Assembly: GCA_043797265.1 (NCBI GenBank)
Contig: JAZDPV010000012.1
Coordinates: 13,875-77,874 of the forward strand
Direction: 5' to 3'
Source of the DNA: an archaeon
Lineage (GTDB): Archaea; Nanobdellota; Nanobdellia; Pacearchaeales; GW2011-AR1
DNA: 64,000 nucleotides
The notes under the pieces were generated by a model. The model saw only the letters and a program-made list of their open reading frames with translations, did not search any database and was not told the origin of the DNA. The translations under genes and the position numbers were made by a program. Shown here piece after piece: positions 62,054 through 64,000 of the stretch; the first letter of the stretch is position 1; every line of letters starts with the position of its first letter.

Positions 62054-62161
62054 CTTCCAGCATCGACAAAGTCGACGCGAACTTCCAGAAAAATCAAGGA
62101 TTTTCGAACTACCAGCGAAGCGGACTGAAATTAAAAAATCGCCCAATGATTTTTTAATTTC
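62054..62161. repeat. mosaic: three CT(T/A)CCAG-led units, each carrying a small hairpin, then a 14-bp hairpin covering the ABCE1 3' end
   Basis: cttccag+tcgac-AAA-gtcga, cttccag+aaaatc-aag-gatttt, ctaccag+cGAAg unit, then gaaattaaaaaatc-gcccaat-gattttttaatttc (62127-62161). Confidence 0.9.
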
Positions 62162-64000
62162 TGCTCCCTGTCCAAAACACTCCCCCTCTTGTTAATCCTC
62201 GGCCTCCCACTCTCTTTATCTTTTCTCAAAGTAATATCCAAACTTTTCAACAATTCACCAACCCCATCTTCAAAATTCCTAACCTCACTCGCCTCACAAA
62301 CCCCAACTCTTTTCTTTAATTCGTGTTCATTCGTGTTCATTCGTGAGCCCTTACTTTCTCCGTCCATCCGCGAGCCGACCTCAGAAAAATTAATAATCAA
62401 ATCCGCCAAATACGAAACCAACAACAAATCGTGCTCGACGACAAACGCCGTCTTTCCCCTCTCGACCATCACATCCTTAATCGCCTTCGCAACCAAAATC
62501 CTCTCCTCAACATCCAGATAAGCCGACGGCTCGTCCAAAAAATAAACATCCGCGTCCTTCGCCAAACATCTCGCAACGCTAAATCTCTGCAACTCCCCGC
62601 CAGACAATTCCCTCAATTTCTTCCCAACCAAAACCCCAAGATTAAACACCGACGACAATTTCTTATTTATCTTCTCCCTAAAAACAATATCCCGAACAAA
62701 CTCCTCGCTCTCGCTAAACAAATACTGCGACTTATAAGAAATATCCAAACCTAAATCAAGTCCGTGTTTGTCCGTGTTTGTCCGTGTGCTATTTTTCTTA
62801 CCACCAAGTCGTTCAGATATCTCCACATCACAAGAACAATTTTCATCGAGCTCGCCCACCAGCGCCCGCACAAATGACGTCTTCCCCGTTCCATTCTTTC
62901 CCAAAATCCCAATCACATGATTCTCCCTAATTTCCCCACCCTTCACATTTAACTCAAACCCCGAATCAAATCTCAAATTAAAATCAGGCCACTCCCCGAT
63001 TTTTCCCCCAGACACCGACGCATTTTTCGTAAAATTAAAATTCAATTCCTTATCCCGAATCAATAAATTCTCCTCTTTCAAAAATCCCTTCAGATAAGCA
63101 TTAACACCTTCCCTCGAACTCTTGACCCCACTCACCGTCCCGAAAACTCCCTGCGCCCCATAAAACACATTTAAATAATCCGTCAAATAATCCAGCACCA
63201 ACAAATCATGCTCGACGACAATCACCGTCTTATCTCGACCAATCTCCTTGATAAAATCCGAAACTCTCAATCTCTCTCCAATATCCAAAAACGCCAACGG
63301 CTCGTCGAAAAAATAAATATCAGCGTCGCCCAAACTCGCCGCCAAAATCGCAACTCTCTGCAACTCACCACCGCTAAGCTTGTCCATCCTATTCCCCAAA
63401 ATATTCTCGACATTCAACTTCTTCGCTAATTCCCTAATTTCTTTTTTGTCCCCACGATTCTCCAACAACTCCATCACACCAATGTCCTTCGCCAACACCG
63501 ACAAATTCTGCGGCTTATACGAAACCTTCTTGTCTCCAAGTAAATCAAAATATTTCTGCAACTCACTCCCCTTGAATTTCCCAACATCAATTTCTATATT
63601 TCCAGACAAAATTTTTACAGCAGTCGATTTCCCAATCCCATTCCTCCCGAGCAAACCCAAAACTTTCCCAACCTTAGGAATAGGCAAACCATACAACGCA
63701 AACCCATTCGCCCCATATCGATAAACCAAATCTTCCTCACTCACCGACGGCAAATTCACAATATCAATCGCACCCAACGGACATCGCTTCACACAAATCG
63801 CGCACCCAACACAACTTTTCTCATCAATAACACACTTGCCCGATGAAGGTGGCACCTTGGTGCCCTCTATAGAGGGTATGCCGCGTGCGGCGCTACCAAT
63901 AACGACGCAACTATCAGACTCCTTCTTCTCAACCGGACAATATTTCTTACACTCGCGCCCGCACACCGTCGGCTTACATTTCTCCCGATGAACAATCGCC
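62131..64000 (-). CDS. abce1: ABCE1 (RNase L inhibitor homolog); 5' end lies outside the window
   Basis: An Fe-S domain (CPVE..., CVGCAICVKRCP) and two ABC domains (GLLGRNGIGKST, GILGKNGTGKTS). The frame stays open to base 64000. Confidence 0.92.
   Translation of the reverse strand, partial: AIVHREKCKPTVCGRECKKYCPVEKKESDSCVVIGSAARGIPSIEGTKVPPSSGKCVIDEKSCVGCAICVKRCPLGAIDIVNLPSVSEEDLVYRYGANGFALYGLPIPKVGKVLGLLGRNGIGKSTAVKILSGNIEIDVGKFKGSELQKYFDLLGDKKVSYKPQNLSVLAKDIGVMELLENRGDKKEIRELAKKLNVENILGNRMDKLSGGELQRVAILAASLGDADIYFFDEPLAFLDIGERLRVSDFIKEIGRDKTVIVVEHDLLVLDYLTDYLNVFYGAQGVFGTVSGVKSSREGVNAYLKGFLKEENLLIRDKELNFNFTKNASVSGGKIGEWPDFNLRFDSGFELNVKGGEIRENHVIGILGKNGTGKTSFVRALVGELDENCSCDVEISERLGGKKNSTRTNTDKHGLDLGLDISYKSQYLFSESEEFVRDIVFREKINKKLSSVFNLGVLVGKKLRELSGGELQRFSVARCLAKDADVYFLDEPSAYLDVEERILVAKAIKDVMVERGKTAFVVEHDLLLVSYLADLIINFSEVGSRMDGESKGSRMNTNEHELKKRVGVCEASEVRNFEDGVGELLKSLDITLRKDKESGRPRINKRGSVLDREQKLKNHWAIF
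62321..62377. repeat. decamer array and a degenerate second copy inside ABCE1
   Basis: tcgtgttcat tcgtgttcat tcgtgagccc ... tccatccgcgagccg, read as GSRMDGESKGSRMNTNEHE. Confidence 0.85.
62761..62793. repeat. decamer array ending in GCTATT inside ABCE1
   Basis: tccgtgtttg tccgtgtttg tccgtgtgct att, read as KNSTRTNTDKHG. Confidence 0.9.
63851..63891. repeat. three abutting palindromes inside the ABCE1 Fe-S domain
   Basis: ggcaccttggtgcc, ccctctatagaggg and gccgcgtgcggc, read as GSAARGIPSIEGTKVPP. Confidence 0.85.

What the first reader, a model, noticed from the sequence alone, without database searches (positions are those of the whole stretch)
62131..64000. Essential genes colonised in frame by repeat and hairpin modules, analogous to Rickettsia palindromic elements
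ABCE1 carries three separate modules (63851-63891, 62761-62793 and 62321-62377). Kae1 carries two, ProRS two, and ArgRS one plus a hairpin. GluRS and Dph5 carry one each, and IleRS carries one that breaks the frame. From my memory of these protein families, the sites fall in loops or linkers. In ABCE1 the site lies between the two Fe-S cluster motifs, where Pyrococcus-type proteins have about 16 fewer residues. In ArgRS it follows the YARASSIL helix, and in ProRS it lies near the C-terminal zinc motif. The modules are the same families found between genes. In-frame spread of selfish palindromic DNA into ORFs is established for Rickettsia RPEs. I am not aware of an equivalent described for archaea.
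Basis: partly seen in the sequence, partly recalled or inferred. Interest (0 to 1): 0.85.

Follow-up and report, generated by a model that had tools for sequence, protein, structure and literature searches.

The report
Translated repeat modules inside archaeal essential genes
In this small-genome (DPANN-type) archaeon and its relatives, short hairpin and tandem-repeat DNA modules have been inserted in frame into flexible loops of essential proteins, much as Rickettsia palindromic elements have, which shows selfish or error-born DNA reshaping core archaeal proteins.

Summary
Window 62131-63999(-) is ABCE1, and it carries three extra segments that close relatives lack (54, about 69 and 66 nt). 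Kae1, ProRS, ArgRS, GluRS, Dph5 and IleRS also carry repeat modules, and the IleRS one breaks the frame.

There are two kinds of module.

1. Dispersed elements.
- A roughly 57-nt hairpin element (peptide AARGIPSKEGTxVPSSSG) occurs in frame at four or more ABCE1 regions, two Kae1 sites and at least four other proteins in related genomes.
- Two of its stems are kept by compensatory changes that alter the peptide.
- It is 36% C in a gene that is 9% C.
- A roughly 50-60-nt element ending in three 10-nt repeats sits at different ABCE1 sites in different genomes. Intergenic copies carry a stop codon where coding copies do not.

2. Arrays of 7-, 14- and 16-nt units and perfect hairpins.
- Some of these arose in place from native codons.
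- They change copy number between relatives.

All three ABCE1 inserts are predicted to be disordered loops.

The Rickettsia analogy holds for the outcome but not for membership. The elements have no terminal inverted repeats, are two to three times shorter, and no transposase was found. An archaeal precedent exists (M. jannaschii, Suyama 2005). I rate this a new variant of a known kind.

The parts
62131..63999 (-). ABCE1 (Rli1) gene. Its first three codons lie beyond the window end. It hosts three modules.
   Evidence: Pfam. 100% match to an NCBI MAG protein, P0001. PDB alignments.
63836..63891 (-). Hairpin element of about 57 nt (54-nt net insert). It is translated as SAARGIPSIEGTKVPPSSG and lies between the two Fe-S cluster motifs.
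   Evidence: Empty site in L001 and L003, filled in L004. Covariance-model hit of 82 bits. Covariation in stems 1 and 3. 35.7% C against 8.8% in the rest of the gene. pLDDT below 50 and coil in the model.
62761..62838 (-). 10-mer element A: CGACTTGGTGGTAAGAAAAATAGC followed by (ACACGGACAA)x3, with upstream extra codons. The peptide is ..SERLGGKKNSTRTNTDKHG, after the Walker A helix of NBD2.
   Evidence: Present in the window and L001, absent in L003 and L004. The same roughly 50 nt lies at another ABCE1 site in L003 and between genes at L003:7085-7150. pLDDT below 50.
62319..62377 (-). 10-mer element B: GGCTCACGAATGAACACGAATGAACACGAAT plus a partial upstream copy. The peptide is GSRMDGESKGSRMNTNEHE.
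   Evidence: 66 nt extra, found only in the window. Related copies at 47795-47825 and 43582-43610. pLDDT below 50.
62127..62161 (-). Perfect hairpin with a 14-bp stem spanning the ABCE1 stop codon. It is a native structure, not an insert.
   Evidence: It is kept in L001 and L003 through the compensatory change TTA..TAA to TCA..TGA.
62112..62128 (+). Single unit of the 16-mer family (CCAGCGAAGCGGACT) in the ABCE1-ArgRS spacer.
   Evidence: At the orthologous spacers, L001 and L003 hold TCGCTAT and TCGCTTG heptamer arrays.
60604..60656 (-). ArgRS: heptamer array (GGTTTCR)x4, peptide RGFGFRVSGFS, next to an 11-bp perfect hairpin. The hairpin's left arm is the native SSIL codons and its right arm is an inverted copy of them (KNRR).
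   Evidence: L001 carries a different heptamer array at the same site, amplified from native AAGTTGGAG.
56600..56661 (+). IleRS: 16-mer array (AGCGAAGCGGACTACC)x2.8 plus the hairpin TTTTTCC-GAA-GGAAAAA. The insert is 62 nt and breaks the reading frame.
   Evidence: A homologous in-frame insert, (GACAAGC)x4 plus a hairpin, lies at the same site in L001. The site is empty in L003 and L004.
54819..54843 (+). Dph5-like gene: CTACC-type heptamer-like repeat, peptide TTTYPLPST (+2 aa relative to relatives).
52791..52824 (-). ProRS: 14-mer x2.4, peptide KNSGVRIQVSEL. It overlays a loop and helix start (+2 aa).
52308..52333 (-). ProRS: heptamer array TCAGAAT/TCAGGAT, peptide SEFRIQDSG. It lies in a +12/+2-aa region between the C-terminal Cys motifs and overlaps the native IQ(D/E)..G.
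47795..47825 (-). Kae1: 10-mer element B, peptide NCSRMNTDGHE, inside a roughly 26-aa insert.
   Evidence: This site is an insertion hot spot in 33 of 118 Kae1 relatives.
47394..47429 (-). Kae1: 14-mer (AAATCAGGCGTCAG)x2.6, peptide AAQKSGVRNQASG, near the C-terminus.
   Evidence: Shared only with the closest relatives P0146, P0147 and P0149.
18407..18438 (+). GluRS: 7/14-mer (CGAACAACGAACAG)x2.3, peptide TEQRTANNEQRI (+4 aa relative to the M. thermautotrophicus enzyme).
22768..22805 (-). Intergenic copy of 10-mer element A, followed by T6. It has TAA where the coding copies have AAA or GAA.
40859..40896 (-). Diverged copy of 10-mer element A at the GyrA stop codon.
43582..43610 (-). Copy of 10-mer element B forming the C-terminal part of an 80-aa ORF.
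11475..11557 (+). Intergenic heptamer arrays CCTGAAA/CCTGAAT. This is the same family as the ArgRS and ProRS arrays.
43839..43871 (+). Intergenic heptamer array (CCTGACG)x4.7. This is the same family as the Kae1 C-terminal array.
46394..46476 (+). Intergenic 16-mer array (ACTTCCAGCGAAGCGG)x2.4 plus one more unit, followed by an 11-bp AT-rich hairpin. The architecture matches the IleRS insert.

Best explanation
Two DNA-level processes act together in this DPANN-type lineage, whose genomes have an extreme strand bias.

(A) Defined short elements are copied to new places.
- One is a roughly 57-nt element with two conserved small hairpins.
- The other is a roughly 50-60-nt element ending in three 10-nt repeats.
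- The 16-mer-plus-hairpin cassette probably belongs here too.

(B) Replication slippage and template switching create and resize arrays of 7-, 14- and 16-nt units and perfect hairpins in place.

Both kinds of product land between genes and inside genes. Inside essential genes, only some copies survive: those in permissive surface loops, adding a multiple of three bases, and free of stop codons in the frame used. Those copies are then translated as hydrophilic, disordered loop extensions.

Because the repeat units are not multiples of three, three units read as the same cyclic peptide in every frame. Gain or loss of a single unit shifts the frame, as seen in IleRS.

What is shown:
- The segments are insertions, patchy among relatives, and recur at different sites and in different genes.
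- They are compositionally foreign.
- The stems covary, and coding copies differ from intergenic copies at stop codons.
- Some modules originated in place.
- The ABCE1 inserts are predicted to be loops.

What is inferred:
- That the modules are translated.
- The copying mechanism. My best guess is a strand-specific process that depends on single-stranded DNA hairpins, or a microhomology and template-switch process. A classical cut-and-paste MITE seems less likely.
For: Insertions, and patchy:
- Codon alignments with three syntenic relatives show filled and empty sites.
- Among 120 ABCE1 homologs, the hairpin peptide sits at four or more ABCE1 regions (core positions 38/39, 179, 249, 380-382). 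Some proteins carry two copies.
- On a neighbour-joining tree, 9 occurrences at the Fe-S linker need 9 changes.
- Kae1 homologs show the same module families at a hot spot, in 33 of 118 sequences.

Other hosts: MetAP, a DnaE-like protein, a 217-aa protein, an Rrp42-like protein, a Pop5-like protein and small basic proteins.

Constraint at the DNA level:
- 13 copies from 6 host genes are 89-98% identical to the consensus.
- In stems 1 and 3, 95% of cells are paired and 5 of 10 pairs show compensatory double changes. 0 of 500 shuffles reach this, and slid controls give at most 1.
- Those changes switch the peptide between AARG, AVHG, ATRG and AVHC.

Foreign composition: 35.7% C against 8.8% in the rest of the gene (p=3e-8). 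The 10-mers have about 21% C (p about 0.004).

Old and young copies in one gene: L012 holds a C-to-T-decayed copy (40.6 bits) beside an intact one (86 bits).

The 10-mer element:
- The same roughly 50 nt lies at two different ABCE1 sites in different genomes.
- Intergenic copies share the 5' flank.
- The intergenic copy reads TAA where coding copies read AAA or GAA.

Origin in place, and dynamics:
- The ArgRS hairpin is native codons plus their inverted copy.
- The L001 heptamer array is amplified from native AAGTTGGAG.
- Homologous IleRS inserts differ in unit and length: 45 nt in frame against 62 nt out of frame.

Arrays and hairpins far exceed chance. No array period is a multiple of 3.

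Loops: the three ABCE1 modules are coil with pLDDT below 50.
Against: - No mobilising enzyme was found. About 50 ORFs of the window scanned against Pfam gave no transposase or reverse transcriptase.
- There are no terminal inverted repeats and no clear target-site duplication.
- The hairpin element has no intergenic copy in 188 kb. It also uses only one of its three open frames and orientations: 14 to 0 to 0 among 238 ABCE1 and Kae1 homologs. Random insertion plus a simple stop-codon filter does not predict that.
- Exact-pattern scans of public genome and metagenome collections found only 1 and 5 stretches, so copy number is low.
- Predicted folding energy is only 0.7-2.1 sd better than shuffles.
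- Between orthologs, third-codon-position identity in the modules is not significantly higher than in the rest of the gene (p=0.13 and 0.06). Shared ancestry plus precise loss cannot be separated from repeated gain.
- There is no expression or proteomic evidence of translation.
Confidence: 0.65

Rival explanations
1. Purely local mutation. Every module is born in place by slippage or template switching in mutation-prone loops. Similar sequences at different loci are then convergence driven by the extreme base composition, with no copying between loci.
For: - In-place origin is shown for the ArgRS hairpin and the L001 ArgRS heptamer array, and is likely for ProRS module 2.
- The heptamers of ArgRS and ProRS have background composition.
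- Arrays at orthologous loci change unit and copy number.
- No transposase was found.
Against: - Non-repetitive sequences of 51-57 nt are 89-98% identical at different sites, in different genes and in different genomes.
- The hairpin element and the 10-mers are strongly anti-skew in composition.
- Intergenic and coding copies of the 10-mer element share a non-repeat 5' flank.
Convergence cannot produce these.
Confidence: 0.15
2. Selected peptide motif. The AARGIPSKEGTxVPSSSG segment (and others) is a functional short linear motif, for example a binding or modification tag, acquired repeatedly because it benefits the host proteins.
For: - It always appears in the same reading frame and orientation, although two other frames are open.
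- It was never found between genes.
- It occurs in many translation and RNA-processing proteins.
Against: - Compensatory nucleotide changes keep the stems while changing the peptide (AARG/AVHG/ATRG/AVHC).
- Synonymous positions are conserved across unrelated host genes.
- Most orthologs lack it: 94 of 120 ABCE1 have an empty Fe-S-linker site.
- Old copies decay freely.
- It is predicted to be disordered.
Confidence: 0.07
3. Removed before the mature protein forms. The modules would be excised from the mRNA, like archaeal bulge-helix-bulge introns, or from the protein, so the enzymes are unchanged.
For: The conserved hairpins could act as RNA processing signals. IleRS carries a frame-breaking insert that would need some rescue.
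Against: - All copies in intact genes add a multiple of three bases and are stop-free in the host frame.
- Intergenic copies carry stop codons. A spliced element would not need that.
- There is no Rfam match.
- The modules are far too short to be inteins.
Confidence: 0.05
4. Assembly or binning artefact. The repeats would have been misassembled into genes.
For: The IleRS frameshift lies in a 16-mer array where one unit more would restore the frame (62+16=78). Short-read assemblers often collapse such arrays.
Against: The same modules are found at the same or other sites in independent assemblies from NCBI, ENA, JGI and Logan. Reading frames are kept everywhere except in IleRS.
Confidence: 0.03

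Closest known systems
Rickettsia palindromic elements (RPE; Ogata et al. 2000, as summarised in PMC2229807 and PMC10969869)
   Same: - Short non-coding-origin repeats inserted in frame into conserved housekeeping genes.
- Tolerated in surface loops and translated as extra peptide.
- Several families.
- Copies decay with age.
- Nucleic-acid structure is conserved.
   Different: - RPEs are 105-146 bp, form one long stem-loop with roughly 12-bp terminal inverted repeats, and are bacterial.
- Here the elements are 54-60 nt with two 5-bp hairpins or three 10-nt direct repeats, and have no terminal inverted repeats.
- The hairpin element was seen only inside genes and only in one frame.
- Many modules here are tandem arrays of 7-16 nt.
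M. jannaschii palindromic repetitive elements MJRE (Suyama, Lathe & Bork 2005; cited in PMC2229807; details from my memory)
   Same: Archaeal repeat elements with coding potential. A few copies lie inside protein genes without disrupting them.
   Different: - As I recall, only three intragenic copies in one euryarchaeal genome, mostly extragenic.
- Here the effect is lineage-wide, with recurrent hits in many essential genes of DPANN archaea.
- Sequence relationship was not tested (no MJRE sequence was at hand).
REP/RAYT and IS200/IS605-derived hairpin elements (PATEs)
   Same: - Very short elements defined by small conserved hairpins.
- No terminal inverted repeats and no target duplication.
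- Orientation tied to the replication strand. All six host genes here have the element on the G-rich strand.
   Different: - Those elements are typically extragenic and depend on a Y1/HUH transposase. None was found in the window.
- The strand bias here is only marginal (p about 0.05).
- This is a mechanistic analogy, not a demonstrated membership.
Bacterial heptameric simple-sequence repeats, cyanobacterial STRR, and contingency loci (PMC4692102)
   Same: - Over-represented tandem arrays with 7-nt units.
- Slippage-driven changes in copy number.
- A single unit change shifts the frame.
   Different: - Those arrays are mostly intergenic and under-represented in coding DNA, or sit in surface and virulence genes as switches.
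- Here they sit in frame in aminoacyl-tRNA synthetases, Kae1 and ABCE1.
Quasipalindrome / template-switch mutagenesis (Ripley-type; from my knowledge)
   Same: The ArgRS hairpin is native codons followed by their exact inverted copy. Stems can be 'corrected' to perfection without selection.
   Different: It is known mainly as a point-mutation and small-indel mechanism in model bacteria and phage, not as a source of translated inserts across a lineage.

Membership tests
Rickettsia palindromic elements (RPE) | Element of about 105-146 bp that forms one long stem-loop through terminal inverted repeats (PMC2229807) | tested here: not met
   The net insert is 54 nt and the element about 57 nt. The ends are not complementary. 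Only two 5-bp hairpins are supported.
Rickettsia palindromic elements (RPE) | In-frame insertion into conserved protein genes without disrupting the ORF | tested here: met
   ABCE1, Kae1, MetAP, Rrp42-like and others. All copies are open in the host frame.
Rickettsia palindromic elements (RPE) | The same families are present both between and within genes | tested here: inconclusive
   Met for the 10-mer, heptamer and 16-mer families. Not met for the hairpin element: 0 intergenic copies in 188 kb, although the loci were chosen through genic copies.
Rickettsia palindromic elements (RPE) | Insertion sites lie on the protein surface or in loops | tested here: met
   In the AlphaFold2 model of ABCE1, all three modules are coil with pLDDT below 50. 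This is a prediction only. The sites are variable-length positions in PDB alignments.
Rickettsia palindromic elements (RPE) | Sequence membership in RPE-1 to RPE-10 | not tested
The length and architecture differences make membership implausible.
MITE | Terminal inverted repeats | tested here: not met
   The 13-copy alignment shows no complementary termini.
MITE | Target-site duplication | tested here: inconclusive
   Filled and empty ABCE1 sites show only GGY/GGYAAR microhomology at the junctions. Only two sites have empty counterparts.
MITE | A cognate autonomous element or transposase in the genome | not testable with these tools
   None was found among about 50 window ORFs. The rest of the genome was not available.
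REP/RAYT or IS200/IS605-type hairpin elements | Conserved small hairpins essential to the element | tested here: met
   Covariation in stems 1 and 3: 5 of 10 pairs show compensatory changes, and 0 of 500 shuffles reach this.
REP/RAYT or IS200/IS605-type hairpin elements | Constant orientation relative to the replication strand | tested here: inconclusive
   6 of 6 independent host genes have the element's C-rich strand on the genome's G-rich strand. The background is 60:40, giving p about 0.05. Orientation relative to the gene is confounded with this.
REP/RAYT or IS200/IS605-type hairpin elements | Y1/HUH transposase present | not testable with these tools
   Not found in the window.
Slippage-born simple-sequence repeats | Head-to-tail near-perfect copies whose number varies between relatives at the same locus | tested here: met
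   12 perfect arrays against 0 expected. The IleRS site, the ABCE1 3' spacer and the ArgRS site differ in unit and copy number among the window, L001 and L003.
Slippage-born simple-sequence repeats | Unit derived from the adjacent native sequence | tested here: inconclusive
   Met for the L001 ArgRS array and the ArgRS hairpin, and likely for ProRS module 2. Not met for the 10-mer and hairpin elements, which carry conserved non-repeat flanks and foreign composition.

The most novel reading that the evidence does not exclude
DPANN (Pacearchaeota-like) archaea may harbour a previously undescribed class of ultra-short (about 57 nt), translated mobile elements.
- They would be defined by two small hairpins.
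- They would spread by a strand-specific, single-stranded-DNA hairpin mechanism linked to the lineage's extreme replication-strand asymmetry.
- Together with non-triplet tandem arrays, which are 'frame-proof' because three units read the same in all frames, they would form a lineage-wide engine.
- That engine would repeatedly remodel the surface loops of universal proteins and occasionally break them, as in IleRS.
Probability: 0.3. Interest if true: 0.85.

Novelty: new variant of a known kind. Interest (0 to 1): 0.68.

Why it matters
- If confirmed, this extends the 'selfish DNA inside protein-coding genes' phenomenon from Rickettsia, and from a three-copy curiosity in M. jannaschii, to a whole radiation of reduced-genome archaea.
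- It shows that elements as short as 54-57 nt can persist as structured DNA or RNA entities while being translated.
- It gives a concrete mutational source for the lineage-specific insertions seen in DPANN universal proteins. These affect phylogenetic marker alignments, indel-based taxonomy and structure prediction.
- Non-triplet arrays in aminoacyl-tRNA synthetases, and a frame-broken IleRS, raise testable questions about repair deficiency, population heterogeneity and frameshift tolerance in organisms with minimal genomes.

Tried and rejected
1. A word-indexed protein search with the module peptide failed. The query was too short, then 'no candidate shares three words', which cost one capped search.
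2. Exact-pattern DNA scans gave few stretches: 1 in genome contigs, 5 in metagenome contigs, 0 in viral contigs for the hairpin element. They were useful for identifying hosts but are no census.
3. The profile search against 1.84 billion representatives returned only 24 hits. The top multi-stretch hits (P0121, P0132) look like translated CRISPR-type arrays. I treat their 9-residue matches as spurious, not as evidence that the element derives from CRISPR repeats.
4. Rfam gave no family for any module.
5. Single-sequence folding gave weak z-scores (-0.7 to -2.1). I rejected a long palindrome or tRNA-like fold, and only covariation supports stems 1 and 3. The central stem shows no covariation, and it was partly fixed by my search pattern.
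6. Third-codon-position identity of modules against the rest of the gene between orthologs was not significant, so it cannot date the insertions.
7. The weak covariance-model hit at L009:6684-6759 lies in native membrane-protein sequence and was rejected.
8. I considered a diversity-generating-retroelement mechanism, because a bAvd-like gene sits at 11072-11434. I dropped it because there is no reverse transcriptase or template/variable repeat pair.
9. The split ArgRS gene call in L004 was inspected. The region shown is continuous in one frame, and I did not resolve it further.

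
Full report
**What the region is**

The window comes from an uncultured DPANN-type archaeon. The ABCE1 protein is 100% identical to an NCBI 'MAG: archaeon' protein on a 122-kb contig, and its nearest named relatives are Pacearchaeota and Nanoarchaeota MAGs. The + strand has only 12.6% G against 29.9% C, whatever the gene orientation.

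**Checking the observation in ABCE1**

I fetched three syntenic relatives, L001, L003 and L004. The gene order ABCE1-ArgRS-...-TrmB-IleRS-Dph5 is conserved in them. Codon alignments show three extra segments in the window's gene:

- A 54-nt segment at 63836-63891 between the two Fe-S motifs. It is present in L004, while L001 and L003 have clean empty sites.
- About 69 nt at 62761-62838, shared only with L001.
- 66 nt around 62319-62377, found only in the window.

An AlphaFold2 model built on 109 homologs (mean pLDDT 74.5) puts all three segments in coil with pLDDT below 50.

**The other genes**

- Kae1 has a roughly 26-residue insert relative to P. abyssi Kae1. It contains the 10-mer repeat at 47795-47825. 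A 14-mer array lies at 47394-47429.
- ProRS has a 14-mer array at 52791-52824 that adds only two residues. A heptamer array at 52308-52333 lies in a +12/+2-residue stretch between the C-terminal cysteine motifs.
- ArgRS has a heptamer array directly after YARASSIL and an adjacent perfect 11-bp hairpin.
- GluRS and Dph5 carry short heptamer-type repeats that add 4 and 2 residues.
- IleRS carries a 62-nt insert (16-mer x2.8 plus a hairpin) that shifts the frame. L003 and L004 have an empty site there.

**Not chance**

The window has 12 perfect arrays. Second-order Markov simulations gave none in 30 runs. It has 17 perfect hairpins against 2-7 in simulations. No array has a period divisible by three (periods are 7, 10, 14 and 16). 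The arrays are about three times enriched between genes: 5-6 of 12 lie in the 16% non-coding DNA.

**Two different things are present**

*Dispersed elements.*

The hairpin element encodes AARGIPSKEGTxVPSSSG.

- In 120 ABCE1 homologs it occurs at four or more regions (core positions 38/39, 179, 249, 380-382), sometimes twice in one protein.
- On a neighbour-joining tree, each of the nine occurrences at the Fe-S linker is phylogenetically isolated. Seventeen other sequences carry different inserts at the same site.
- It also occurs at two Kae1 sites.
- DNA or profile searches found it in MetAP, a DnaE-like protein, a 217-aa protein, an Rrp42-like protein, a Pop5-like protein and several small basic proteins.

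I aligned thirteen DNA copies from six host genes. Six of them were retrieved through protein hits, so they were not conditioned on DNA sequence.

- They are strongly conserved, including at synonymous positions.
- Two 5-bp stems are 95% paired. Compensatory double substitutions occur in 5 of 10 pairs. This beats all 500 shuffles, and slid controls give at most 1.
- Those substitutions change the peptide (AARG, AVHG, ATRG, AVHC). So the nucleic-acid structure is what is kept, not the peptide.
- The element is 35.7% C in a gene whose coding strand is 8.8% C (p=3e-8).
- One relative's ABCE1 holds an intact copy and a C-to-T-decayed copy in the same gene.

The 10-mer element behaves similarly.

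- The same roughly 50 nt, including a non-repeat 5' part, lies at one ABCE1 site in the window and L001, and at a different ABCE1 site in L003.
- It also lies between genes in L003 and in the window (22768-22805, and 40859-40896 at the GyrA stop).
- The intergenic copy reads TAA where coding copies read AAA or GAA.
- The 16-mer-plus-hairpin cassette occurs at three window loci. It also occurs as 3x16=48 nt in frame in a TPP-enzyme gene of L003.

*Locally born repeats.*

- The ArgRS hairpin consists of the native SSIL codons followed by their exact inverted copy.
- The L001 ArgRS heptamer array is an amplification of native AAGTTGGAG at the same site.
- ProRS module 2 overlaps the native IQ(D/E)..G.
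- The IleRS inserts of the window and L001 are homologous: same site, array plus a TTTCC-RAA-GGAAA hairpin. They differ in unit (16-mer against heptamer) and in length (62 nt out of frame against 45 nt in frame).
- The ArgRS and ProRS heptamers have background composition.

**Mechanism**

Shown:

- The segments are insertions, patchy among relatives and recurrent at different sites.
- They are constrained at the DNA level.
- Stop codons have been purged from coding copies.
- Repeats are born in place and change in size.

Inferred:

- Copies inside genes survive only in permissive loops, at multiples of three and stop-free, and they are translated.
- A useful property follows from arithmetic. 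Three units of a 7-, 10- or 16-nt repeat give the same cyclic peptide in every frame. Such arrays are therefore indifferent to frame, but shift the frame when a single unit is gained or lost. This explains IleRS.

How the dispersed elements move is unknown.

- There are no terminal inverted repeats and no clear target duplication. Only GGY/GGYAAR microhomology is seen at two junctions.
- About 50 window ORFs include no transposase or reverse transcriptase.
- The hairpin element uses only one of its three open frames and orientations: 14 to 0 to 0 in 238 homologs.
- In all six independent host genes it lies with the same polarity relative to the strand bias (p about 0.05).

This points, weakly, to a strand-specific hairpin-dependent process of the REP/IS200-IS605 kind, or to templated copy-paste. 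A classical MITE seems less likely.

**Comparison with what is known**

- RPEs are the textbook case of in-frame repeat insertion, at 105-146 bp with terminal inverted repeats (PMC2229807, PMC10969869). The present elements share the outcome but fail the architectural criteria.
- An archaeal precedent exists. [quoted passage not shown] 2005, cited in PMC2229807).
- Literature searches found nothing on such modules in DPANN archaea.
- An excess of heptameric repeats is known in bacteria, but there it is mostly intergenic (PMC4692102).

**Limits**

- There are no expression data.
- Only 64 kb of the genome was available, plus fragments of relatives.
- Database scans by exact pattern were sparse.
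- Gain cannot be fully separated from ancestral presence followed by precise loss.
- The IleRS frameshift may be an assembly collapse.

**Verdict**

This is a new variant of a known kind, of good interest.

Noticed in passing
window 1-64000; also L001, L003, L004, L006, L009, L012-L016: Extreme strand compositional asymmetry. The + strand is 12.6% G against 29.9% C, and GC skew is -0.08 to -0.63 in every 2-kb bin whatever the gene strand. Relatives show the same. A literature search found no report of this for DPANN.
   Followed up: partly
window 62127-62161: A perfect hairpin with a 14-bp stem spans the ABCE1 stop codon. L001 and L003 keep it through the compensatory change TTA..TAA to TCA..TGA. 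L004 lacks it. It may be a terminator or an mRNA-stability element.
   Followed up: partly
window 34165-40805: Low-GC (0.32) island. It holds a 931-aa ORF with no Pfam hit, an Eco57I/MmeI-like type IIG restriction-modification enzyme (37142-40066) and a PD-(D/E)XK nuclease (40149-40805). It was probably acquired horizontally.
   Followed up: partly
window 11072-11434 and 14387-14788: A 23S-rRNA-intervening-sequence / bAvd-like four-helix-bundle gene sits right next to the intergenic heptamer arrays (11475-11557). A PDDEXK_3 gene lies nearby. No reverse transcriptase is present.
   Followed up: partly
window 40892-45793 and 48479-50556: This archaeon has bacterial-type DNA gyrase (GyrA, GyrB). 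It also has a DisA-type diadenylate cyclase with an adjacent DHH/DHHA1 phosphodiesterase.
   Followed up: no
L007:8031-8093 and L008 (JGI contigs Ga0075114_10000804, Ga0075122_10000606): A 1074-aa DnaE-like (bacterial Pol III alpha-type) ORF carries the same hairpin element in frame, on contigs with the same strand skew. The replicon could be a virus, a plasmid or a non-archaeal host.
   Followed up: no
L011:447-473 (IMGVR_UViG_3300029305_012138): A phage-like contig (GC 50%, no skew) has an intergenic (ACACGGACGA)x4 array bracketed by GC-rich inverted repeats. The 10-nt motif is therefore not confined to the DPANN lineage.
   Followed up: partly
P0121, P0132 (profile search hits): Spurious-looking proteins that seem to be translated CRISPR-like arrays (repeated VSIPSQMGTLLG and SVPSSSGKMLL) matched halves of the hairpin-module profile. 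I judged this coincidental, but the similarity to the element's ...CCATCTTCATCGGGCAA half was not tested at the DNA level.
   Followed up: no
ABCE1 and Kae1 homologs: Further recurrent insert families appear at multiple sites in relatives: 'DKAQE' (ASGDKAREG, APNGKAQEG), 'G(H/D)DSGEP', 'PQLDSxGHQT' and 'SQVAG/GSRQSAV/VRNQASG'. The repertoire of modules is larger than what the window shows.
   Followed up: partly
L004:13954-15581: ArgRS of the relative L004 is called as two overlapping ORFs (247 + 302 aa). The stretch I inspected is continuous in one frame, so the cause of the split is unresolved.
   Followed up: partly
window 3724-3793 and 4569-4637: Two tRNA genes lie in a gene-poor, repeat-rich stretch (3.5-6.9 kb). 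The stretch also holds a purine-rich low-complexity array at 5565-5683.
   Followed up: no
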